A stretch of 45,623 nt of DNA from a virus (Duplodnaviria; Heunggongvirae; Uroviricota; Caudoviricetes): IMG/VR virus record IMGVR_UViG_2537561936_000015. One strand, written 5' to 3'. The position numbers were made by a program, and so were the translations under genes. The notes under the pieces were generated by a model, which worked only from the letters and a program-made list of their open reading frames with translations, was not told where the DNA came from and made no database searches. Positions 1,419 through 20,825 of the stretch are shown here, one piece after another (position 1 is the stretch's first letter; each line of letters opens with the position of its first letter).

Positions 1419-2489
1419 TTATTTGATTTCAATTTTGTCCCACTCCCTGCCTCTGTCATCACGATACTGTGATGCCATGGTGTCCGACTTATGCCCGAGA
1501 AGATGTTGAGCAAACTTATCGCTTATCTGCTTCTCATAGAGTCTTGCAGACAAACTGCGCAACTCGTGAAAGGTAGGCGGATCCCCTTCGAAGGAAAGAC
1601 CTGATGCTTTTCGTGCGCGCATAAAATACCTTGATACTGTGCCGGATGAAAGCGGTTCGCGACGAGTAGATGCAATTATGGTTTCTCCGCCAAGAATCTC
1701 TTTGCATTTATCAAGTGTTTCCTTCATTGATATTCCGAGAGCATCAACATGCAATGCTGTTGGGATGGCAATTTTTACGCCTGTTTTGCTTTGCTCGACA
1801 TAAAGATATCCATCTACGATATCAGACCACTTCATTTCGCATAAATCACCAACTCGTTGCCCGGTAACAACAGCCAGTTCCATTGCAAGTCTGAGCCAAC
1901 ATGGTGATGATTCTGCTGCTTGATAAATTTTCAGGTATTCGTCAGCCGTAAGTCTTGATCTCCTTACCTCTGATTTTGCTGCGCGAGTGGCAGCGACAGG
2001 GTTTGTTGTTATATGGCCTTCAGCTATTGCCTCTCGGAATGCATCGCTCAGTGTTGATCTGATTAACTTGGCTGACGCCGCCTTGCCCTCGTCTATGTAT
2101 CCATTGAGCATTGCCGCAATTTCTTTTGTGGTGATGTCTTCAAGTGGAGCATCAGGCAGACCCCTCCTTATTGCTTTAATTTTGCTCATGTAATTTATGA
2201 GTGTCTTCTGCTTGATTCCTCTGCTGGCCAGGATTTTTTCGTAGCGATCAAGCCATGAATGTAACGTAACGGAATTATCACTGTTGATTCTCGCTGTCAG
2301 AGGCTTGTGTTTGTGTCCTGAAAATAACTCAATGTTGGCCTGTATGGCTTCAGTGATTGCGATTCGCCTGTCTCTGCCTAATCCAAACTCTTTACCCGTC
2401 CTTGGGTCCCTGTAGCAGTAATATCCATTGTTTCTTATATAAAGGTTAGGGGGTAAATCCCGGCGCTCATGACTTCGCCTTCTTCCCAT
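1419..2489 (-). CDS. int: Tyrosine integrase Int (phage lambda)
   Basis: 356-aa ORF MGRRRSHERRDLPPNLYIRNNGYYCYRDPRTGKEFGLGRD.. recognised as lambda Int; adjacent to att. Confidence 0.97.
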   Translation of the reverse strand: MGRRRSHERRDLPPNLYIRNNGYYCYRDPRTGKEFGLGRDRRIAITEAIQANIELFSGHKHKPLTARINSDNSVTLHSWLDRYEKILASRGIKQKTLINYMSKIKAIRRGLPDAPLEDITTKEIAAMLNGYIDEGKAASAKLIRSTLSDAFREAIAEGHITTNPVAATRAAKSEVRRSRLTADEYLKIYQAAESSPCWLRLAMELAVVTGQRVGDLCEMKWSDIVDGYLYVEQSKTGVKIAIPTALHVDALGISMKETLDKCKEILGGETIIASTRREPLSSGTVSRYFMRARKASGLSFEGDPPTFHELRSLSARLYEKQISDKFAQHLLGHKSDTMASQYRDDRGREWDKIEIK

Positions 2490-2685
2490 TTCTGATCCTC
2501 TTCAAAAGGCTACCTGTTACTGGTCGATTTAAGTCAACCTTTACCGCTGATTCGTGGAACAGATACTCTCTTCCATCCTTAACCGGAGGAGGGAATATCC
2601 TGCACTCGCGTACCCATCGACGAACTGTTTCAAGGCTTCTTGGGCGTCGCTGGCGTGCGTTCCACTCCTGAAGTGTCAAGTACAT
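2467..2685 (-). CDS. xis: Excisionase Xis (phage lambda)
   Basis: 72-aa ORF MYLTLQEWNARQRRPRSLETVRRWVRECRIFPPP.. overlapping int 5' end as in lambda. Confidence 0.95.
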   Translation of the reverse strand: MYLTLQEWNARQRRPRSLETVRRWVRECRIFPPPVKDGREYLFHESAVKVDLNRPVTGSLLKRIRNGKKAKS

Positions 2686-2711
2686 CGCAAAGTCTCCGCA
2701 ATTACACGCAA

Positions 2712-2735
2712 GAAAAAACCGCCATCAGGCGGCTT
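2712..2735 (-). terminator. Putative rho-independent terminator (minus strand), stem CCGCC/GGCGG followed by U-run
   Basis: Hairpin ccgcc-atca-ggcgg preceded on plus strand by A6 run; overlaps stop of upstream small ORF. Confidence 0.4.
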
Positions 2736-2892
2736 GGTGTTCTTTCAGTTCTTCAATTCGAATATTGGTTACGTCTGCATGTGCTATCTGCGCCCACAGC
2801 ATCCAGTGGTCATAGCAGTCGCTGATGTTCTCGGCTTCGATAACTCTGTTGAATGGTTCTCCATTCCATTCACCTGTGACTCGGAAGTGCAT
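2725..2892 (-). CDS. Small hypothetical protein (55 aa, lambda orf55-like), MHFRVTGEWNGEPFNRVIEAENISDCYDHWMLWAQIAHADVTNIRIEELKEHQAA
   Basis: Hand-translated ORF below the 60-aa track cut-off; GGAG 7 nt upstream of ATG; position matches small ORF next to xis in lambda. Confidence 0.5.
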   Translation of the reverse strand: MHFRVTGEWNGEPFNRVIEAENISDCYDHWMLWAQIAHADVTNIRIEELKEHQAA

Positions 2893-3134
2893 TTATCATC
2901 TCCATAAAACAAAACCCGCCGTAGCGAGTTCAGATAAAAGAAATCCTCGTCAGTGCGAGGATGCTGTTCATTGCTGCTATACACTTTTTTGCTCTCAACG
3001 TAAGCGGTAGCCCATTCTGTTGGGTTGGTGCAGTTGCTTTTAGGAAATGCTATTTACCCCTTAAATGTCGGCTGAAAGAGCTAAAATCCATGCAAAAAAT
3101 TTACGCAATTTTGTGTATTATTGTGCAGTAAGTA

Positions 3135-3737
3135 ATGAGCTATTTTCTGCGCAAAAAATGGATGGTAAATTTGTCCGGGTCAGGAAAAATTTTATGGGCG
3201 CTAAACATGAAAAAAGATTCGTATCCTTATTTGATTTGCATGACAGTTTCAGGGCTGATCTTTATTTTCCTTTTCTTCTGGTGGCGGGCAGATATCTACA
3301 GGGTCACGTTTCTTAATCAGAGTATATCCCACTATTACATTCTGTTTAGCATGGGAATAGCTTTTCTGTTATCTCTGTTTTGGGTTAAGAAGGGGATAGT
3401 AAAACAAAGAGGCTGGAAGAGTCTGTCAGCATACCTTAAGGTTTATGCAGGGATGTGCATATTTGCAGGATTTTTTCTGATTATACCCCTTACGACACTA
3501 ACTTATTTTTTGCCTGGAGAGACATCGTCTTATGTTGCACCGTATCGGTATACTTCCGGTAGTTCAAAAAGTTGTTCTGGAGCTGAGGTGGATGACCCCG
3601 ATCTACATGAGAATATTCGCATTTGCTATCCGTATGGCAATTATGAGTACGATAATATTATCTATGTTGAAAAGAAAATTAATATATTAGGTGCGGTAGT
3701 GACATATGCACAGACCGCGCGTGATGATACTGAATGA
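3135..3737 (+). CDS. Hypothetical integral membrane protein (3 predicted TM helices + ~75-aa C-terminal soluble domain); AT-rich moron gene
   Basis: 200-aa ORF on opposite strand to the early-left operon; hydrophobic segments YLICMTVSGLIFIFLFFWW, ILFSMGIAFLLSLFWV, VYAGMCIFAGFFLIIPLTTLTYFL; alternative start at 3207 (MKKDSYP..); strongly AT-rich region. Confidence 0.55.
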   Translation: MSYFLRKKWMVNLSGSGKILWALNMKKDSYPYLICMTVSGLIFIFLFFWWRADIYRVTFLNQSISHYYILFSMGIAFLLSLFWVKKGIVKQRGWKSLSAYLKVYAGMCIFAGFFLIIPLTTLTYFLPGETSSYVAPYRYTSGSSKSCSGAEVDDPDLHENIRICYPYGNYEYDNIIYVEKKINILGAVVTYAQTARDDTE

Positions 3738-3771
3738 TATAGTATATAGCGGGCAAGTTTTAGTTAATTTA

Positions 3772-3795
3772 TCGAGGTAATATAATTTACCTCGA
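3772..3795 (+). terminator. Perfect palindrome TCGAGGTAA-TATAAT-TTACCTCGA downstream of membrane-protein gene (putative terminator/regulatory hairpin)
   Basis: 9-bp perfect inverted repeat 35 bp after stop codon at 3737. Confidence 0.3.
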
Positions 3796-3947
3796 CTCGT
3801 TTGTTCTGGTATTAATATTTCGCTTTACGACCGATTTTTATCTGATGATATCATGCGGTTTTCATATACTGACTTACTGTCTTTTCTCCGTTAGCGATTT
3901 TCTCCTGCTCAGCGATGATTTTATCTTTGGCTTCTAGTTAATTTCGC

Positions 3948-4169
3948 TCACTTCGAACCTCTCTGTTTACTGATAAGCTCCAGATCCTCCTGGCAACTTG
4001 CACAAGTCCGACAACCCTGAACGACCAGGCGTCTTCGTTCATCTATCGGATCGCCACACTCACAACAATGAGTGGCAGATATAGCCTGGTGGTTCAGGCG
4101 GCGCATTTTTATTGCTGTGTTGCGCTGTAATTCTTCAATTTCTGATGCTGAATCAATGATGTCTGCCAT
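3948..4169 (-). CDS. DksA/TraR-family C4 zinc-finger protein
   Basis: 73-aa ORF with CxxC..(17)..CxxC (CCECGDPIDERRRLVVQGCRTCASC) typical of TraR/DksA-like phage proteins. Confidence 0.6.
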   Translation of the reverse strand: MADIIDSASEIEELQRNTAIKMRRLNHQAISATHCCECGDPIDERRRLVVQGCRTCASCQEDLELISKQRGSK

Positions 4170-4222
4170 CTTCCATTAATCCCTGAATTGTTGGTTAATA
4201 CGCTTGAGGGTGAATGCGAATA

Positions 4223-4246
4223 ATAAAAAAGGAGCCTGTAGCTCCC
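4223..4246 (-). terminator. Putative rho-independent terminator (minus strand) GGAGC-loop-GCTCC + U6
   Basis: Hairpin ggagc ctgta gctcc with A6 on plus strand immediately 5' of it. Confidence 0.45.
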
Positions 4247-4267
4247 TGATGATTTTGCTTTTCATGT

Positions 4268-4579
4268 TCATCGTTCCTTAAAGACGCCGTTTAACATGCC
4301 GATTGCCAGGCTTAAATGAGTCGGTGTGAATCCCATCAGCGTTACCGTTTCGCGGTGCTTCTTCAGTACGCTACGGCAAATGTCATCGACGTTTTTATCC
4401 GGAAACTGCTGTCTGGCTTTTTTGATTTCAGAATTAGCCTGACGGGCAATGCTGCGAAGGGCGTTTTCCTGCTGAGGTGTCATTGAACAAGTCCCATGTC
4501 GGCAAGCATAAGCACACAGAATATGAAGCCCGCTGCCAGAAAAATGCATTCCGTGGTTGTCATACCTGGTCTCTCTCAT
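4268..4579 (-). CDS. Hypothetical early protein (lambda orf61-like); start ambiguous (4579, 4549 or 4483)
   Basis: ORF ..MTPQQENALRSIARQANSEIKKARQQFPDKNVDDICRSVLKKHRETVTLMGFTPTHLSLAIGMLNGVFKER; same strand and order as lambda exo-proximal small ORFs. Confidence 0.5.
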   Translation of the reverse strand: MRETRYDNHGMHFSGSGLHILCAYACRHGTCSMTPQQENALRSIARQANSEIKKARQQFPDKNVDDICRSVLKKHRETVTLMGFTPTHLSLAIGMLNGVFKER

Positions 4580-4751
4580 CTGCTTCTGCTTTCGCCACCA
4601 TCATTTCCAGCTTTTGTGAAAGGGATGCGGCTAACGTATGAAATTCTTCGTCTGTTTCTACTGGTATTGGCACAAACCTGACTCCAATTTGAGCGAGGCT
4701 ATGTGCCATCTCGATACTCGTTCTTAACTCAACGGGAGATGCTTTGTGCAT
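4560..4751 (-). CDS. Hypothetical early protein (lambda orf63-like)
   Basis: 63-aa [66 protein letters not shown]. Confidence 0.6.
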   Translation of the reverse strand: MHKASPVELRTSIEMAHSLAQIGVRFVPIPVETDEEFHTLAASLSQKLEMMVAKAEADERDQV

Positions 4752-11192: not shown

Positions 11193-11259
11193 TGAAACAG
11201 GTGAGTTGAGTTCAAACTGTAGTACAATTCTCTCCAGTTTGAACAGGAAAGAATATGCT

Positions 11260-11592
11260 ATGAATCCTTATATTTATCTTGGTGGTGCAATACTTGCAGA
11301 GGTCATTGGTACAACCTTAATGAAGTTTTCAGAAGGTTTTACACGGTTATGGCCATCTGTTGGTACAATTATTTGTTATTGTGCATCATTCTGGTTATTA
11401 GCTCAGACGCTGGCTTATATTCCTACAGGGATTGCTTATGCTATCTGGTCAGGAGTCGGTATTGTCCTGATTAGCTTACTATCATGGGGATTTTTCGGCC
11501 AACGGTTGGACCTGCCAGCCATTATAGGCATGATGTTGATTTGTGCCGGTGTGTTGGTTATTAATTTATTGTCACGAAGCACACCACATTAA
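11260..11592 (+). CDS. emrE: Small multidrug resistance (SMR) efflux transporter EmrE
   Basis: 110-aa MNPYIYLGGAILAEVIGTTLMKFSEGFTRLWPSVGTIICYCASFWLLAQTLAYIP.. recognised as E. coli EmrE (DLP12 cargo gene). Confidence 0.9.
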   Translation: MNPYIYLGGAILAEVIGTTLMKFSEGFTRLWPSVGTIICYCASFWLLAQTLAYIPTGIAYAIWSGVGIVLISLLSWGFFGQRLDLPAIIGMMLICAGVLVINLLSRSTPH

Positions 11593-11847
11593 AAATAATT
11601 TGTTTTTAAACGACTAAAATATGGAGGCTCGTATATTTATATGGGCCTCGTTTTATGCTTTTTGTTAATGTCTTTAGTTTTTATTCATTCTTTTGTGCTT
11701 TCAAGATTATGGTGTAAGAAAATTGCAATACGATTATTGTTGTATATTCAAGATAATGTGACCTTAATTGTCTTTTTAAATAAAAATTAAACAAAAATCA
11801 TATCTCACCACTAAGGTTTATAAAAGCATACTTTAGCAGGTGTCACC

Positions 11848-13374
11848 ATGAAAAAAGCCATAGCATATATGCGATTTTCATCACCAGGTCAGATGTCTGG
11901 TGATTCATTAAACCGCCAGAGAAGGCTTATTACTGAATGGCTAAAGGTAAATAGTGATTATTACCTTGATACCGTAACGTATGAAGATTTGGGGTTAAGC
12001 GCATTCAATGGAAAGCATGCACAATCAGGAGCTTTTTCGGAATTTTTAGATGCTATAGAACATGGTTATATATTGCCAGGGACTACATTGTTAGTTGAAA
12101 GTCTGGACAGACTTTCAAGAGAAAAAGTCGGTGAAGCGATTGAGCGTCTGAAATTGATTTTGAATCACGGTATTGATGTTATAACTCTTTGCGATAATAC
12201 AGTCTATAATATTGACTCATTGAATGAGCCATATTCATTAATAAAAGCCATACTTATAGCACAAAGGGCAAATGAAGAAAGCGAGATAAAGTCAAGTCGG
12301 GTTAAATTATCATGGAAGAAAAAACGGCAGGATGCACTGGAGTCAGGCACGATTATGACGGCGTCTTGTCCGAGATGGCTCTCATTGGATGACAAAAGAA
12401 CGGCTTTTGTTCCAGACCCCGACAGGGTGAAAACTATTGAGCTAATTTTTAAACTCAGGATGGAAAGGCGCTCATTGAATGCAATAGCCAAGTATTTAAA
12501 TGATCATGCTGTAAAGAATTTCTCAGGAAAAGAAAGTGCATGGGGACCTTCTGTAATTGAAAAATTATTAGCGAATAAAGCTCTGATAGGTATATGCGTA
12601 CCTTCATATCGTGCAAGAGGTAAAGGAATAAGTGAAATCGCTGGCTATTATCCCAGAGTCATATCAGATGATTTGTTTTACGCTGTGCAGGAAATTCGGT
12701 TGGCACCTTTTGGTATTAGCAATAGTAGCAAAAATCCTATGTTGATAAATCTACTTCGAACAGTTATGAAGTGCGAGGCTTGTGGTAATACCATGATTGT
12801 TCATGCGGTATCTGGAAGTTTGCATGGCTATTATGTTTGTCCGATGAGAAGACTGCATCGATGTGACAGGCCATCAATAAAGAGAGATTTGGTTGATTAT
12901 AATATCATTAATGAGTTGCTTTTTAATTGTAGTAAAATCCAACCAGTTGAAAACAAGAAAGATGCTAATGAAACTTTAGAGTTGAAAATTATTGAGCTCC
13001 AGATGAAAATTAATAATTTAATTGCTGCATTATCTGTTGCGCCTGAAGTTACCGCTATAGCAGAAAAAATCAGAGTATTAGATAAGGAATTACGAAGGGC
13101 TTCTGTATCATTAAAAACTTTGAAGAGTAAAGCGGTGAGTTCACTTGGTGATTTTCATGCTATTGACTTAACCAGTAAAAATGGGCGAGAGCTATGTCGT
13201 ACACTTGCCTATAAAACATTCGAAAAAATCATAATCAATACAGATAATAAAACCTGTGATATCTATTTTATGAATGGCATTGTTTTTAAACACTATCCTT
13301 TAATGAAAACAATATCTGCCCAGCAGGCGATAAGTACTCTCAAATATATGGTTGATGGTGAGGTTTATTTTTGA
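11848..13374 (+). CDS. ybcK: Large serine recombinase (DLP12 YbcK-like)
   Basis: 508-aa ORF, N-terminal resolvase-type catalytic region (AYMRFSSPGQ); AT-rich; same position as ybcK in DLP12. Confidence 0.85.
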   Translation: MKKAIAYMRFSSPGQMSGDSLNRQRRLITEWLKVNSDYYLDTVTYEDLGLSAFNGKHAQSGAFSEFLDAIEHGYILPGTTLLVESLDRLSREKVGEAIERLKLILNHGIDVITLCDNTVYNIDSLNEPYSLIKAILIAQRANEESEIKSSRVKLSWKKKRQDALESGTIMTASCPRWLSLDDKRTAFVPDPDRVKTIELIFKLRMERRSLNAIAKYLNDHAVKNFSGKESAWGPSVIEKLLANKALIGICVPSYRARGKGISEIAGYYPRVISDDLFYAVQEIRLAPFGISNSSKNPMLINLLRTVMKCEACGNTMIVHAVSGSLHGYYVCPMRRLHRCDRPSIKRDLVDYNIINELLFNCSKIQPVENKKDANETLELKIIELQMKINNLIAALSVAPEVTAIAEKIRVLDKELRRASVSLKTLKSKAVSSLGDFHAIDLTSKNGRELCRTLAYKTFEKIIINTDNKTCDIYFMNGIVFKHYPLMKTISAQQAISTLKYMVDGEVYF

Positions 13375-13485: not shown

Positions 13486-13809
13486 ATGGATGCTGGCGTT
13501 CTCGTTCTAGCAGTTCAACAATCCCCAATCACAAAACAATTCACTGATAACGAACTTTGCACACTCGCCTGGTTATGGCGAGCAGGGAATGTGATGTTAA
13601 TTACCTACCAGAACGTTCCTCCTCTTCTTCAGGTTGCGGAGCATCGTGAAGCTGGTCGCTTCACTTCTATCGAGCAAGAATATCCCCAGATACTCAACAG
13701 AGCGCGAGCAATCCTCGTCCGAGAAACGGCACATGTAAAACTTCAGCCGTGGCAGGATGATAAGTGGAGTCGAGTATTGCCGCATTTACCTCAGAATCTG
13801 TTTCAATAA
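13486..13809 (+). CDS. Hypothetical protein (107 aa), unrecognised
   Basis: ORF with GGGA 6 nt upstream of ATG; stop codon two codons upstream in frame; no motif recognised. Confidence 0.4.
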   Translation: MDAGVLVLAVQQSPITKQFTDNELCTLAWLWRAGNVMLITYQNVPPLLQVAEHREAGRFTSIEQEYPQILNRARAILVRETAHVKLQPWQDDKWSRVLPHLPQNLFQ

Positions 13810-13983: not shown

Positions 13984-14766
13984 ATGGACAATATTAATAA
14001 ACACGGGCTCTCAAGAAGAATACCTGAGACAATAAAACGTCAGATAAGGCAAAGGTGCGGCTTTGGCTGTGTAATTTGTGGATTTGGATTTTATGATTAT
14101 GAGCATTTTAAACCTGACTTCGTTGATGCCAAAGTACATGATCCGAATGGAATGACACTTCTTTGCTCCCAATGCAATCAAAAAAGAGCTCGTGGTAGAC
14201 TTTCAGCACAGACAGTGGAAATAGCTGACAGAAATCCCAAGTGCTTACAGGCTGGTTTTGCAAATGAAATGTTTGATTTTCATAATGAGCCTATAACAGT
14301 AAAATTTGCAGGAGTGACGTTTCATAACTGTCAAAATTTGATTGTAGTCAACGAACAACCCATTCTTTCTGTGAAACCTTCACCCATACCACATGGACCG
14401 ATGCTTTTATCAGGAATTTTCTGTAATTCTATTGGTAAGGAGACTTTACTGATAGATGAAAATGAATGGAAAGCTAAATCAGACAATTGGGATGTGGAGT
14501 GTACCGGCCCGCGTATAACAATACGACGTGGGCCAGGAGAGTTTGCCCTCGTTCTAAAAATGGAACCTCCAACAGGATTGATTGTTGAGCGTCTTGATAT
14601 GTTGTATGAAGGGGTCAGGATGAAAGGAGATAAAGATCTGCTGGAAGTTTCGATTAATGGAGGTCCCTTGCACAGATGGCAATCATGCTCAATGTCAAAT
14701 TGCCATACAGGGCTTGCGATTCAGGGCGGTATTAGAGCTGCTAATGATCCTTTGTATTGCGCCTAA
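13984..14766 (+). CDS. Hypothetical protein with N-terminal HNH (His-Me finger) nuclease-like zinc-finger motif and ~190-aa unknown C-terminal domain
   Basis: 260-aa ORF; residues 24-66 RCGFGCVICG..YDYEHF..HDPNGMTLLCSQCNQKR give Cys cluster-EH-N-CxxC spacing; AT-rich codon usage; not AraC-like. Confidence 0.6.
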   Translation: MDNINKHGLSRRIPETIKRQIRQRCGFGCVICGFGFYDYEHFKPDFVDAKVHDPNGMTLLCSQCNQKRARGRLSAQTVEIADRNPKCLQAGFANEMFDFHNEPITVKFAGVTFHNCQNLIVVNEQPILSVKPSPIPHGPMLLSGIFCNSIGKETLLIDENEWKAKSDNWDVECTGPRITIRRGPGEFALVLKMEPPTGLIVERLDMLYEGVRMKGDKDLLEVSINGGPLHRWQSCSMSNCHTGLAIQGGIRAANDPLYCA

Positions 14767-16363: not shown

Positions 16364-16448
16364 AGTCAGAGATAACAATCAACTAATACTGTTTTGTTGA
16401 TTTTTGCTTGTAATTGGCGTTCTGGTCTGATTTTTGTGGAGTAAGTTG

Positions 16449-16832
16449 ATGCGTGATATTCAGATGGTTCTTGAGCGTTGGGGAGCGTGGGCGGCTAATA
16501 ATCATGAAGATGTGACCTGGTCGTCCATTGCCGCCGGTTTTAAGGGATTAATTACTTCAAAAGTAAAATCTCGCCCGCAATGTTGTGACGATGACGCGAT
16601 GATTATTTGCGGGTGCATGGCCCGTCTGAAAAAGAACAACAGCGATTTGCACGATTTATTAGTAGATTATTATGTAGTCGGTATGACATTCATGTCACTG
16701 GCAGGTAAGCATTGCTGCTCTGATGGTTATATCGGGAAAAGGTTACAGAAGGCTGAGGGCATAATTGAAGGGATGTTAATGGCATTAGATATCCGGTTAG
16801 AGATGGATATCGTTGTTAATAACTCTAATTAA
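16449..16832 (+). CDS. quuD: Late-gene antiterminator Q (QuuD/phage-21 type)
   Basis: 127-aa [66 protein letters not shown].. ; position before lysis genes. Confidence 0.85.
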
Positions 16833-17020
16833 TATGCCAATTGTTTACTAAAAATTATTAAAAATGGGGCGTTGAGACGCCCCCAAAAATAAAGGGTAAT
16901 ATATAACAGAAGGTTTATATAGTTAGAAGCAAGGTTGTGCTCCTAAAGGAAGTGGCTTGAGGGAGCCACTTATATGTTGGGGAGGCAAAGCCTCCCGCAA
17001 CATATCTTTTAGTAATCAAA

Positions 17021-18103
17021 TTAGAACTGGTAAACCATACCTACAGCAACGATATCATCGGTAGCAACGCCAGATGCTTTCGTGAAATCGCTCTTATCAA
17101 TCAGGTTGATTTTGTAATCAACAAAAGTGGACATATTTTTGTTGAAGTAATAGGTTGCACCTACATCAATATATTCAACCAGGTCCTGATCACCCCACGC
17201 ACCCAAGTCTTTTCCTTTAGATTGCAGGTAAGCAACGGACGGACGCAGACCGAAGTCGAACTGATATTGTGCAACTACTTCGAAGTTTTGTGCTTTGTTG
17301 GCAATATGGTTATTACCAAAAACAGTCATGTTCTGGGTTTCAGAATAGGTGGTAGCCAGATAGATGTTGTTCGCATCATATTTCAGACCAGCTGCCCATA
17401 CTTCAGCATTTTGACCAGATGCATTCAGGCTGTTGTTACCGTAGATAACCTGATTATTAGTGCGGTCAGATTTAGCATAGGTTGCACCTACACCGAATCC
17501 TTCATACTCATAAGTAGTGGAGAAACCGAAACCATCACCATTAGCTTCAGTTACGTCAGTGCGGTCATTTTTACCCTGATACTGAGCAGCAAAGTTCAGA
17601 CCATCAACCAGACCAAAGAAGTCATTGTTACGATAAGTTGCAACACCTGTGGTGCGACCAGTCATGAATACATCTGTTTGGGTCCAGGTATCGCCACCGA
17701 ATTCTGGCAGAACGTCGGTCCATGCACCAATATCGTATGCTACACCGTAGTTACGGCCATAATCGATGGAGCCGTAGTCACCGAATTTCAGGCCAGCGAA
17801 GGCAAGACGGGTTTTGTCTTTGGAGGAACCTTGAGATTCAGCGCGGTTGCCTTTGAATTCATATTCCCACTGACCGAAACCAGTCAGTTGATCGTTGATT
17901 TGGGTTTCACCTTTGAAGCCAAGACGGGCATAAGTAGTATCACCATCATCTGCATCATTAGAGGAGAAGTAGTGCTTAGCATTAACTTTCCCGTACAGAT
18001 CCAGCTTGTTACTGTCTTTATTATAAATTTCAGCTGCCTGAGCAGACATCGCCATCAGTACTGATGCAGCTACAGCAGAAATTGCCACTGTTAATTTTTT
18101 CAT
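17021..18103 (-). CDS. nmpC: Outer membrane porin (NmpC/OmpD, OmpC family), lysogenic-conversion gene, apparently intact
   Basis: 360-aa ORF with signal peptide [24 protein letters not shown]-terminal ..VAVGMVYQF typical of general porins; opposite strand between Q and lysis genes as in DLP12. Confidence 0.9.
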
Positions 18104-18439
18104 CGTGAGCCCTTTTTTTGAACTATTATTAAAAAATGATGTCACTGCGCGATAAATATTCATCTAATCAATGTGATTATTTCAAGATGTAAGTTTTGGT
18201 TTCTCATTTGATTTGTGAAGTAGATCTCTATTTTTATCTGAACTTTTTCTATCGAATCCTATTCATGGCTCTTGGCTGAATAAAAATAAATCTATTAGCC
18301 AATTTATATTAATGGCTGTTATTTATAAGTGCTCTATAATTTGAAGGTTCAATTTAAACCAGCTAAAAATAACGCTGGAAATTATTTGTTGGTTATTTGT
18401 TGAGATTTGCTTATGTATTTGTAGTGGTGTTTTCAATAC

Positions 18440-20358: not shown

Positions 20359-20769
20359 TTAGTGCGGAAATATTTGTGTAGTGTTCTGAATGTTCTCAGT
20401 AAAGAGTAATGAATTATCAAAGGTATAGTAATACCTTTTGTTTTCGTGGATATTTGTAATCCATCTGAAAACCCCTGCTGTAGCAAGATTTTTCCTGTAT
20501 TCGTAAAATGATAACTCTCCTGATTTGAATCCTTTTAAGGTGGCTTCTATAAGGCATTTATTTTTTGAAAATCTTACATTTACAACCTTACCCTGTCCTT
20601 TTATTAAAACCGTATTATCGTTTTCAAGAACAAGATGAATATTCTCTGTAGCTAAATAGTAAATGTAATGTGAGACATTGTGACGTTTTAGTTCAGAATA
20701 AAACCAGTGATAGTTTAAATTATTTCGCACTTTATCGAATATTTGTTTAAAAATGGCAACCTGAGCCAT
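20359..20769 (-). CDS. ybcV: DUF1398-family protein YbcV-like
   Basis: 136-aa [67 protein letters not shown].. recognised as DLP12 YbcV-like. Confidence 0.7.
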
Positions 20770-20825
20770 TGTAGTACCTTCCATGTGATATGAGGGGCGT
20801 AGTCTGCACGATTATCTAAATTGCT

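What the first reader, a model, noticed from the sequence alone, without database searches (positions are those of the whole stretch)
2893..3947. AT-rich, oppositely oriented moron encoding a 3-TM membrane protein between orf55 and the TraR-like gene
Seen in sequence: a ~1 kb strongly AT-rich segment interrupts the minus-strand early-left operon and carries one plus-strand ORF (3135-3737, 200 aa; alternative start 3207) with three hydrophobic helices and a ~75-aa polar C-terminal domain (..SKSCSGAEVDDPDLHENIRICYPYGNYEYDNIIYVEKK..), an AT-rich upstream region and a perfect palindrome 35 bp after its stop. Established knowledge: in lambda this slot holds ea8.5/ea22; antisense, own-promoter morons near int/xis commonly encode superinfection-exclusion or abortive-infection membrane proteins. 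Inference: candidate lysogen-expressed exclusion/defence membrane protein.
Basis: partly seen in the sequence, partly recalled or inferred. Interest (0 to 1): 0.6.

Follow-up and report, generated by a model that had tools for sequence, protein, structure and literature searches.

The report
Phage 434 membrane-protein cargo cassette
A self-contained, AT-rich gene cassette from phage 434 encodes a small inner-membrane protein whose conserved part faces the periplasm; it is very common in E. coli prophages, also sits in the anti-phage "hotspot" of P2-like phages, and has never been tested for function.

Summary
Window 2963-3936 (38% GC against 51%) cleanly replaces lambda's ea8.5 and ea22, between orf55 with its tL4 terminators and the TraR-like orf73. 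It carries one plus-strand gene, antisense to the pL operon. The true start is M25 (3207), giving 176 aa rather than 200.

The protein has three TM helices (N-in) and a periplasmic five-stranded β-barrel with two invariant cysteines. Twenty-five of 32 invariant residues are periplasmic, and dN/dS is about 0.1.

The same insert is in phage 434, mEp332, 2B8 and 905 of 5426 complete E. coli genomes. The core 3070-3827 (conserved extended −10 promoter, ORF, terminator) also occurs in the gpQ-gpA (old/tin) defence hotspot of P2-like prophages. There the family is Rousset 2022's untested "System #4, 3 TM" (470 occurrences). The E. coli P2 copy carries an Ea22-like pseudogene fragment, showing transfer from a lambdoid phage.

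Diverged, GC-ameliorated, syntenic chromosomal copies exist in Enterobacter and other genera. The family has no homology to SieA, PADLOC, Pfam or PDB entries.

Best reading (about 0.4): a prophage-expressed protein that acts in the periplasm to block phage genome entry. Main rival (about 0.3): an envelope conversion factor unrelated to phages.

The parts
2963..3936 (.). Segment that replaces lambda ea8.5 and ea22. It is the 434-type insert and is AT-rich (38.1% GC).
   Evidence: Alignment with lambda NC_001416: near-identity up to ~2962 and from ~3937, unrelated in between. GC statistics. The same segment is 98.7-99.7% identical in phage 434, mEp332 and 2B8.
2912..2962 (-). Two tandem intrinsic-terminator hairpins of the pL operon (tL4 of phage 434), forming the left recombination joint of the insert.
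   Evidence: Terminator scan. M60848 annotates 't-L4' here. Fold -20.9 kcal/mol, z = -3.8. 214 phage records share only these first ~96 nt of the query and then diverge.
3070..3827 (+). Core mobile cassette (upstream control region + ORF + terminator), shared with the gpQ-gpA hotspot of E. coli and Salmonella P2-like prophages.
   Evidence: blastn: window 3070-3827 = L020 5864-6619, 76% identity, E = 4e-162; L006 3074-3705, 72%.
3101..3127 (+). Three helically phased (10-bp) heptamers, TTACGCA / TTGTGTA / TTGTGCA, about -78/-68/-58 from the predicted transcription start. This is a possible regulator site. It includes the 'CII box' marked by the 434 annotators (3111-3124).
   Evidence: Conserved at -106/-96/-86 from the ATG in the window, L020, L005 and L006, with perfect TTGTGCA x3 in L006. 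The generic TTGYN6TTGY pattern is at chance frequency in the window (10 found, 11.8 expected).
3143..3171 (+). Predicted sigma-70 promoter: weak -35 TTTTCT (3143-3148), 17-nt spacer, extended -10 TGgTAAATT (3163-3171). Predicted start ~3178, giving a 5'UTR of ~28 nt.
   Evidence: TGnTAAATT lies at -44 from the ATG in the window, L020, L005 and L006, and TGATAATTT at -47 in L011-L013, despite ~30% DNA divergence. The motif alone is not rare (7 in the window, 3.6 expected). The stringent scan found no canonical promoter here. This is a prediction only.
3207..3737 (+). CDS of 176 aa plus stop. Predicted layout in 176-aa numbering: TM1 ~7-26, periplasmic loop 27-42 (with a short strand), TM2 43-60, basic cytoplasmic loop 61-78, TM3 79-103, periplasmic beta-barrel domain 104-170 (window ~3516-3716) with invariant Cys123 and Cys140.
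   Evidence: Alignments A1/A2. Hydropathy and charge. AF2 models at pLDDT 85.7 and 89.4. dN/dS 0.10-0.16. Conservation by region. PHROG 1416 E = 7e-51 over the C-terminal 88 aa.
3772..3809 (+). Intrinsic terminator of the cassette: 9-bp perfect stem, 6-nt loop, T-rich tail.
   Evidence: The hairpin is retained with a compensatory A-T to G-C change in the P2-type copy L020. On the minus strand the stem forms but no U-tract follows.
3851..3951 (-). Decayed remnant of an ead/Ea22-like gene: GTG start at 3951 overlapping the orf73 stop, 'VSEIN*', then out of frame 'LEAKDKIIAEQEKIANGEKTVSQYMKTA*'. There is a ~232-bp internal deletion relative to the copy in P2-like prophages.
   Evidence: Six-frame translation and blastn against L022, where PGAP annotates an 'ead/Ea22-like family protein, frameshifted, incomplete' right after the cassette. 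Lambda Ea22 starts VSEINSQALRE.
2961..3131 (+). 56-aa ORF annotated as 'putative membrane protein' in 434 and mEp332. It is probably not a gene.
   Evidence: It overlaps the tL4 hairpin and the cassette's control region, has no family hits, is not called by PGAP, and similarity to the P2-type cassettes starts only at 3070.
2725..2892 (-). orf55 (lambda lambdap35 homolog), the left neighbour.
   Evidence: PHROG 676 E = 5e-40. Annotated ORF55 in M60848. Aligned to lambda.
3948..4169 (-). TraR/DksA-type zinc-finger protein, the lambda Orf73 homolog and right neighbour.
   Evidence: Pfam zf-dskA_traR E = 1.6e-8. Near-identical to lambda DNA. PGAP 'TraR/DksA family transcriptional regulator'. Lambda Orf73 as a TraR homolog: PMC9239242.

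Best explanation
The cassette is an autonomous cargo unit ('moron') of 434-type lambdoid prophages. It is probably transcribed from its own extended -10 sigma-70 promoter in the repressed prophage and terminated at its own hairpin.

Its 176-aa product inserts into the inner membrane with three helices, N-terminus in the cytoplasm. It displays, just above the membrane in the periplasm, a compact five-stranded beta-barrel, probably disulfide-locked (Cys123-Cys140), packed against a short strand from the TM1-TM2 loop.

The most likely function is superinfection exclusion at the envelope. The periplasmic module would bind either a periplasm-exposed part of an incoming phage's DNA-delivery machinery or a host inner-membrane or periplasmic factor used for genome entry, and so block DNA translocation. 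After induction, N-antiterminated pL transcription crosses the cassette antisense and would shut it off.

Shown: the anatomy, the mobility, purifying selection, and the hotspot location of relatives. Predicted only, from hydropathy, the positive-inside rule and structure models: the membrane topology and the periplasmic placement of the conserved face. Inferred: expression in lysogens, the disulfide, the entry-block activity and its target.
For: - Clean replacement of ea8.5/ea22, with joints at the tL4 hairpin and 11 nt past the orf73 stop.
- The unit shared with an unrelated phage family is exactly control region + ORF + terminator.
- An extended -10 element sits at a fixed distance from the ATG in seven diverged cassettes, and the terminator hairpin is kept with a compensatory change.
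- Purifying selection is strong: dN/dS 0.10-0.16 overall and 0.07-0.10 in the C-terminal domain.
- The positive-inside rule gives an N-in/C-out topology, and the AF2 models are confident.
- 25 of 32 invariant positions are periplasmic and none lie in the cytoplasmic loop.
- 7 of 11 diverged homolog clusters lie in the gpQ-gpA hotspot of P2-like prophages. That is the old/tin slot, shown to be a reservoir of anti-phage systems (PMC9122126). There the family is the fourth most frequent 'system' (470 occurrences; 51% identity, E = 2e-56).
- Hotspot neighbours include HicAB, YafO and an AAA_16 ATPase system.
- The size and 3-TM inner-membrane architecture parallel P22 SieA, a proven DNA-entry blocker (PMC10883804).
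Against: - No sequence or profile similarity to SieA (hhalign probability 0.2%), to any PADLOC model, Pfam or NCBIfam family or PDB sequence.
- The family was not among the systems cloned and tested by Rousset 2022 and was not recovered in Vassallo 2022.
- P2 hotspots also hold non-defence cargo such as partition systems and cdt. Only 15-32% of unknown P2-hotspot proteins score as antiviral by machine learning (PMC13586616).
- A diverged branch is chromosomal, GC-ameliorated and syntenic across five Enterobacter species. Other chromosomal copies occur in Klebsiella, Cedecea, Citrobacter and Pseudescherichia. That distribution is unlike typical fast-turnover defence genes.
- No expression data exist. 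The promoter is only predicted, and the stringent scan did not find it.
Confidence: 0.4

Rival explanations
1. It is a lysogenic-conversion envelope protein unrelated to phage defence. On this reading it is a periplasm-facing membrane protein that changes envelope physiology (stress, antimicrobial-peptide or toxin tolerance, colonisation). It would have been captured by phages from, or domesticated as, a conserved chromosomal gene.
For: - Syntenic, host-GC chromosomal orthologs occur in five Enterobacter species, in the order gene, GGDEF gene, AI-2E transporter gene.
- Chromosomal copies without phage genes nearby occur in Klebsiella sp., Cedecea, Citrobacter and Pseudescherichia.
- P2 hotspots and lambdoid morons also carry non-defence cargo. 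This window itself carries a porin and an SMR pump.
Against: - In E. coli, Salmonella and Klebsiella the gene is almost always in phage cargo hotspots enriched for anti-phage functions.
- It is absent from plasmids.
- No link to any known envelope pathway was found.
Confidence: 0.3
2. It is an abortive-infection membrane effector. The 3-TM protein would depolarise or permeabilise the inner membrane when infection is sensed, killing the cell before phage release.
For: Small multi-TM proteins are common effectors of abortive-infection systems (discussion in PMC9122126). The hotspot location also fits.
Against: - It is a single-gene cassette with no sensor partner conserved across contexts.
- Conservation is concentrated on the periplasmic side, while the cytoplasmic loop and TM2 have no invariant residue. 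That pattern is poorly suited to sensing intracellular phage cues.
- There is no PADLOC hit.
Confidence: 0.1
3. It is an orphan immunity protein against an envelope-acting toxin, such as a pore-forming bacteriocin or a contact-dependent, T6SS or Rhs effector. It would be kept by prophages to protect the lysogen.
For: - From my own knowledge, immunity proteins to pore-forming colicins are 3-4-TM inner-membrane proteins of similar size, often on the opposite strand with constitutive promoters.
Against: - No Pfam or NCBIfam colicin-immunity hit.
- No toxin gene adjacent in any of about 20 contexts examined.
Confidence: 0.06
4. It is a CII-activated gene acting in lysogeny establishment. This follows the 434 annotators' CII box at 3111-3124, and the gene would not be a prophage-expressed moron.
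For: TTGTgtattaTTGT matches the consensus TTGYN6TTGY and is annotated as a CII site in OL657226. The repeats are conserved.
Against: - The pattern occurs at chance frequency (10 found against 11.8 expected).
- The same phased heptamers are conserved in P2-like cassettes, and P2-like phages, from my own knowledge, have no CII.
- The heptamer (TTGTGCA x3) is longer than, and different from, a CII tetrad pair.
- A conserved extended -10 lies 40 nt further downstream.
Confidence: 0.05

Closest known systems
P2-hotspot 'System #4 (3 TM)' of Rousset et al. 2022 (Table S5B, PMC9122126)
   Same: It belongs to the same protein family: 51% identity over 168 aa, E = 2e-56. It has the same length, 3-TM layout and C-terminal motifs (SCSGA, ICYPxG, LGAVVTYA), and it is a single-gene cassette.
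   Different: That entry lies in the gpQ-gpA hotspot of P2-like prophages, whereas the window copy lies in the exo-xis region of a lambdoid prophage. It was only catalogued (470 occurrences) and does not appear among the cloned and tested systems.
P22 SieA superinfection-exclusion protein (PMC10883804)
   Same: It is a prophage-expressed, ~162-aa inner-membrane protein with three predicted TM helices, encoded by a stand-alone gene with its own promoter, and it blocks DNA injection. The gross architecture and genetic logic are similar.
   Different: There is no detectable homology (BLASTP E = 12; hhalign probability 0.2%). SieA's conserved motif FxRYPxEAxxFNK is predicted to be cytoplasmic, whereas here the conserved part is periplasmic. 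SieA lies between genes 16 and 9 of P22-like phages.
Lambda ea8.5 / ea22 (occupants of the same slot in lambda)
   Same: They occupy the same genomic slot between orf55/tL4 and orf73. A decayed Ea22-like remnant still flanks the cassette.
   Different: ea8.5 and ea22 are minus-strand, pL-transcribed, soluble early proteins. The cassette is plus-strand, autonomous and encodes a membrane protein. There is no sequence relationship.
P2 old and tin (classical exclusion genes of the gpQ-gpA slot)
   Same: Relatives of the window gene occupy exactly this slot in P2-like prophages.
   Different: From my own knowledge, Old is an ATPase-nuclease and Tin a soluble protein that poisons T-even replication. 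They share no sequence or architectural similarity with a 3-TM periplasm-facing protein.
HK97 gp15, and T4 Imm and Sp (small inner-membrane entry-exclusion proteins; from my own knowledge, with gp15/TMP work cited)
   Same: They are small prophage- or phage-encoded inner-membrane proteins that stop genome entry at the periplasm/inner-membrane step. gp15 is itself a moron.
   Different: They are different, shorter proteins with 1-2 TM helices. No similarity was detected in the PHROG, Pfam or BFVD searches. I did not compare them directly.
DUF1093 membrane-associated small beta-barrel proteins (PDB 3npp, 2k5q)
   Same: These are the best structural matches to the periplasmic domain. They are small five-stranded barrels attached to a membrane anchor.

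Membership tests
Moron (autonomous cargo transcription unit in a prophage) | Extra or foreign DNA lying between genes that are adjacent or differently filled in related phages | tested here: met
   Segment 2963-3936 replaces lambda ea8.5/ea22 with sharp joints. 209 of 214 phage records sharing the left joint carry something else.
Moron (autonomous cargo transcription unit in a prophage) | Deviant base composition | tested here: met
   38.1% against 50.7% GC, the minimum of the early-left arm.
Moron (autonomous cargo transcription unit in a prophage) | Own terminator | tested here: met
   Hairpin 3772-3795 plus T tail, dG -12.9, z = -3.6. It is conserved with a compensatory change in the P2-type copy.
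Moron (autonomous cargo transcription unit in a prophage) | Own promoter | tested here: inconclusive
   An extended -10 TGnTAAATT is conserved at -44/-47 in seven cassettes. It is not found by the stringent scan, and the motif alone is not rare.
Moron (autonomous cargo transcription unit in a prophage) | Expressed from the repressed prophage | not testable with these tools
   This needs RNA-seq or 5'RACE of a 434-type lysogen.
Rousset 2022 P2-hotspot System #4 / PHROG 1416 protein family | Sequence homology to the family representative | tested here: met
   BLASTP 51% identity, E = 2e-56. PHROG 1416 E = 7e-51. Profile search finds 61 representatives, nearly all ~170 aa.
Rousset 2022 P2-hotspot System #4 / PHROG 1416 protein family | Location between gpA and gpQ of a P2-like prophage | tested here: not met
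   The window copy is in a lambdoid exo-xis region. Homologs P0039, P0044, P0048, P0050, P0054, P0061 and P0064 are in the P2 slot.
P22 SieA superinfection-exclusion family | Sequence or profile homology to SieA types A-C, including the motif FxRYPxEAxxFNK | tested here: not met
   BLASTP E = 12 and hhalign probability 0.2%. The motif is absent from the sequence.
P22 SieA superinfection-exclusion family | ~160-aa inner-membrane protein with three TM helices | tested here: met
   Prediction only: hydropathy and the AF2 model. SieA description.
P22 SieA superinfection-exclusion family | Blocks DNA injection of superinfecting phage | not testable with these tools
   This requires plaque, K+ efflux or DNA-entry assays.
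Known anti-phage defence systems (PADLOC-DB v2) | Match to any defence-protein HMM | tested here: not met
   No hit at E <= 10.
Rex-type or abortive-infection membrane effector systems | Membrane effector paired with a sensor or partner gene in the same unit | tested here: not met
   The unit shared across contexts is a single gene. Neighbouring genes differ in every context.
Pore-forming colicin immunity proteins | Match to colicin-immunity families and linkage to a bacteriocin gene | tested here: not met
   No Pfam or NCBIfam hits. No toxin gene in any context examined.
CII-dependent promoter (pRE / pI / paQ type) | TTGC-N6-TTGC straddling the -35 region, more than expected by chance, in a CII-encoding phage | tested here: inconclusive
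   The consensus is present at 3111-3124. However, the pattern is at chance frequency, and the repeats are conserved as three TTGTGCA heptamers in P2-like cassettes as well.

The most novel reading that the evidence does not exclude
The protein founds a new family of single-gene entry-exclusion factors that act in the periplasm. The family is exchanged between lambdoid and P2-like temperate phages, and it is related to a conserved chromosomal envelope gene of Enterobacter. Its target would then be a host periplasmic or inner-membrane component, or a conserved feature of phage DNA conduits, that many unrelated phages need for genome entry. Escape mutants would identify that component.
Probability: 0.25. 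Interest if true: 0.65.

Novelty: new member of a known kind. Interest (0 to 1): 0.45.

Why it matters
The gene sits in a founding model phage (434). It is present in about one in six complete E. coli genomes. Its family is the fourth most common cargo of the P2 defence hotspot. Yet it has no name, no domain annotation and no assay result.

It is a single 0.76-kb unit with its own control signals, so it can be tested directly by cloning, deletion from a 434 lysogen, and phage panels.

If it blocks genome entry, escape mutants would point to a periplasmic or inner-membrane step of DNA delivery that is still poorly defined for siphoviruses and myoviruses. If it does not, it is a widespread lysogenic-conversion envelope protein, and that would bear on how 'defence hotspots' are interpreted.

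The Ea22-like fragment carried into the P2 hotspot is also a concrete, directional example of cargo exchange between unrelated temperate phage families.

Tried and rejected
- Rfam scan of 2400-4700 at E <= 1 found nothing. The prophage sRNA svsR was considered, but it lies at the 3' end of cI and is not relevant here.
- Pfam, NCBIfam and PADLOC gave no family. Only a sub-threshold DUF6057 hit appeared.
- PDB sequence search found nothing below E = 0.4.
- SieA homology was tested and rejected.
- P0122, a 3074-aa repeat protein from the profile search, gave weak short matches to a Cys motif in each repeat and is judged spurious.
- The 200-aa (3135) and 188-aa (3171 TTG, the 434 annotation) gene models are rejected in favour of 3207.
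- The 56-aa ORF 2961-3131 is judged not to be a gene.
- A plasmid search found no copies.
- A search of the Vassallo 2022 supplements for the family motifs found nothing. No paper mentions the protein accessions. The 434 genome announcement does not discuss the gene. The supplements of the 2026 P2/P4 paper are not held.
- Holin, spanin and lipoprotein readings were rejected. The gene is not in the lysis cassette, has no conserved lipobox (Cys11 is not conserved), and TM1 is too long for a cleavable signal peptide.
Full report
**1. Setting**

The window is a lambda-like prophage integrated next to ybhC. The left arm reads int (1419-2489), xis, orf55 (2725-2892), a TraR/DksA-type zinc-finger gene (3948-4169), then orf63- and orf60a-like genes, exo, bet, gam and kil, all on the minus strand. 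The zinc-finger gene is the homolog of lambda Orf73, a published TraR homolog (PMC9239242).

**2.

Aligned with lambda, the window is almost identical up to ~2962. That point is the end of a hairpin that the old phage-434 record M60848 calls terminator tL4. Identity resumes at ~3937, 11 nt past the orf73 stop. In between, lambda has ea8.5 and ea22, and the window has 974 unrelated bases.

- The insert has 38.1% GC against 50.7% for the window. It is the GC minimum of the whole early-left arm, and only 4.3% of same-size windows are as AT-rich.
- GC skew changes sign over it, in line with a gene on the opposite strand.
- The palindrome 35 nt after the stop is a 9-bp perfect stem with a 6-nt loop (3772-3795). 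Its dG is -12.9 kcal/mol (z = -3.6), and it is followed by a T-rich tail only on the plus strand.

**3. Gene model**

The 200-aa ORF from 3135 is too long.

- In an alignment of 21 homologs, M25 is invariant, and the diverged members (169-180 aa) begin there.
- At the DNA level the stretch upstream of 3207 is conserved between the lambdoid and the P2-type cassettes. In the E. coli P2-type copy, however, that frame is closed by a TAA created by a 1-nt indel. The stretch is therefore conserved as non-coding control sequence.
- The product is 176 aa (3207-3737).
- The gene is real. dN/dS is 0.10-0.16 against copies with dS of 1-2, and 0.07-0.10 in the C-terminal domain.
- The 56-aa ORF (2961-3131) annotated in 434 and mEp332 is probably spurious.

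**4. Protein**

Hydropathy gives three TM segments. Lys and Arg cluster at the N-terminus and in the TM2-TM3 loop, which predicts an N-in/C-out topology. The C-terminal ~73 residues are acidic and carry two cysteines.

AlphaFold2 models are confident, with pLDDT 85.7 for the whole protein and 89.4 for the domain alone. They show three long helices, a short strand in the TM1-TM2 loop, and a five-stranded beta-barrel.

Of the 32 invariant positions, 21 lie in the C-terminal domain (including Cys123 and Cys140) and 4 in the periplasmic loop. None lie in the cytoplasmic loop or TM2. The periplasmic face is therefore where selection acts.

**5. No known relatives with a function**

- Pfam, NCBIfam and PADLOC give nothing.
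- PHROG 1416 (unknown function) matches the C-terminal 88 residues. Its 90-aa profile reflects N-terminally truncated gene calls or variants such as the 112-aa form, which is seen on at least 1000 contigs.
- An exhaustive profile search of 1.84 billion representatives finds only 61 proteins, nearly all ~170 aa. Named members come from E. coli, Shigella, Salmonella, Klebsiella, Enterobacter, Cedecea, Citrobacter, Pseudescherichia, Phytobacter, Erwinia, Proteus and Providencia, and all are annotated 'hypothetical'.
- P22 SieA shares size, three TM helices and inner-membrane location (PMC10883804) but is not detectably homologous.

**6. Distribution and mobility**

The whole insert is 98.7-99.7% identical in phage 434 (CPT_434_35/36, 'putative membrane protein'), mEp332 and 2B8. 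These are the only 5 of 50,697 phage records that encode the family. It is present at 80% coverage or more in 905 of 5426 complete E. coli genomes and is absent from plasmids.

Diverged homologs tell more. Clusters at 78%, 71%, 59%, 57%, 55% and ~50% identity, from E. coli, Salmonella, Enterobacter, Klebsiella and metagenomes, all sit between the portal gene Q and the replication gene A of P2-like prophages. Some lie beside YafO, HicAB or an AAA_16 ATPase system.

Rousset et al. 2022 define this gpA-gpQ interval, the old/tin slot, as a hotspot of anti-phage systems. Their Table S5B lists 'System #4': no Pfam, 470 occurrences, '3 TM'. Its sequence is 51% identical to the window protein. The family's motifs do not occur in their tables of cloned systems, so it was catalogued but not tested.

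The DNA shared between the lambdoid and the E. coli P2-type copies is window 3070-3827 at 76% identity. That is ~137 nt upstream, the ORF, and ~90 nt downstream including the hairpin, which keeps pairing through a compensatory change.

Right after the cassette, the P2-like prophage carries a frameshifted, truncated ead/Ea22-like pseudogene starting MSEINYQALRE. In the window the same gene survives only as 'VSEIN*' fused to its last ~28 codons (3851-3951, minus strand), which is a ~232-bp deletion. Ea22 is a lambdoid exo-xis gene, so this P2 copy came from a lambdoid phage together with part of its neighbour.

**7. Control signals (predicted)**

An extended -10 element (TGgTAAATT, 3163-3171) lies 44 nt before the ATG in the window, in one E. 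coli locus and in two Salmonella P2-type loci. TGATAATTT lies 47 nt before it in three more loci of a further Salmonella clade. A weak -35 (TTTTCT) sits 17 nt upstream. The motif alone is not rare, and the stringent scan missed it. The evidence is its positional conservation.

Upstream lie three heptamers in 10-bp phase, with consensus TTGTGCA and a perfect triple in L006. The 434 annotators marked two of them as a CII box. That pattern occurs at chance frequency, and the heptamers are also conserved in P2-like cassettes. An unknown, probably host, factor is more likely.

**8. Chromosomal branch**

Copies at 36-45% identity in five Enterobacter species lie at one syntenic site, upstream of a GGDEF gene and an AI-2E transporter gene. 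Their GC equals that of the flanks. Further chromosomal copies occur in Klebsiella sp., Cedecea, Citrobacter (next to an rstB-like kinase gene and tus) and Pseudescherichia. Phage-borne copies are AT-rich, at 38-44% against 50-55% in their flanks.

**9. Interpretation**

The gene is an autonomous cargo unit. Its product works on the periplasmic side of the inner membrane.

Three points make an entry-exclusion role the single most likely function (about 0.4):
- Its homologs sit in a validated defence hotspot.
- It has been exchanged between two unrelated temperate phage families.
- Its architecture parallels proven entry blockers.

Three points keep a non-phage envelope role a strong rival (about 0.3):
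- A branch of the family is vertically inherited on the chromosome.
- The family has no homology to any defence protein.
- Hotspots are known to be of mixed content. In Rousset's study, 3 of 8 additional P2 systems tested were active, and 15-32% of unknown P2-hotspot proteins are predicted antiviral.

Abortive-infection effector, orphan toxin-immunity and CII-controlled readings are less likely, for the reasons given under the rival explanations.

**10. Verdict**

The sequence is already in databases, and its family has been counted in P2 hotspots, but nothing is known about function. It is a new member of a known kind (a prophage moron or hotspot cargo gene), moderately interesting, and directly testable.

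Noticed in passing
window 3851-3951 (minus strand); L022 5775-6145: This is a decayed Ea22-like gene remnant: 'VSEIN*' plus 'LEAKDKIIAEQEKIANGEKTVSQYMKTA*'. A longer pseudogene of the same gene follows the cassette inside the gpQ-gpA hotspot of an E. coli P2-like prophage. This gives a directional trace of cargo transfer from a lambdoid exo-xis region into the P2 hotspot.
   Followed up: yes
window 3101-3127: Three 10-bp-phased heptamers (TTACGCA/TTGTGTA/TTGTGCA, with perfect TTGTGCA x3 in Salmonella locus L006) lie upstream of the predicted promoter. They are conserved in lambdoid and P2-type cassettes. The binding factor is unknown. One copy in L006 (TGTGCAAAA) also fits a DnaA-box consensus, judged by eye.
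   Followed up: partly
L008, L026-L029, L033 (Enterobacter spp.), gene at 6001-~6510: A diverged branch of the family (36-45% identity) is a syntenic, GC-ameliorated chromosomal gene in at least five Enterobacter species. It lies just upstream of a GGDEF-domain gene and an AI-2E transporter gene, and in some species directly after a LysR regulator gene.
   Followed up: partly
P0131 (112 aa) and P0160 (128 aa), cluster members: N-terminally shortened forms (TM3 plus the periplasmic domain only) are very common, with the 112-aa form on at least 1000 contigs.
   Followed up: partly
window 11206-13374: An AT-rich island after the replication genes carries an EmrE-like SMR efflux pump (128 aa) and a 508-aa large serine recombinase. 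The arrangement resembles the DLP12 emrE-ybcK arrangement.
   Followed up: partly
window 16434-18163: An intact 380-aa general porin gene (Porin_1, E = 4e-153) lies on the minus strand just downstream of antiterminator Q. It is an NmpC/Lc-type lysogenic-conversion porin. A DUF1398 gene lies at 20359-20784 in another AT-rich patch.
   Followed up: partly
window 13984-14766: A 260-aa ORF in the same AT-rich island has no Pfam or PADLOC hit. The 107-aa ORF before it (13486-13809) carries only a P22 antirepressor C-terminal domain.
   Followed up: no
L014 2281-5623 (Klebsiella P2-like prophage): In the same gpQ-gpA hotspot as the 3-TM homolog lies a 790-aa AAA_16 ATPase gene plus a 279-aa gene with no Pfam hit. 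This may be an uncharacterised defence pair.
   Followed up: no
L024 (contig JARKOR010000073.1): A 3.5-kb contig labelled 'Candidatus Nanosynbacter' MAG carries this cassette at 100% protein identity together with lambda exo and orf73. This is almost certainly E. coli prophage contamination of the bin.
   Followed up: partly
L023 3833-4000 (E. coli 600468): In a RefSeq genome whose insert is 100% identical to the window's, PGAP marks the orf55 homolog as a pseudogene with an internal stop. The window's own orf55 reads through intact.
   Followed up: no
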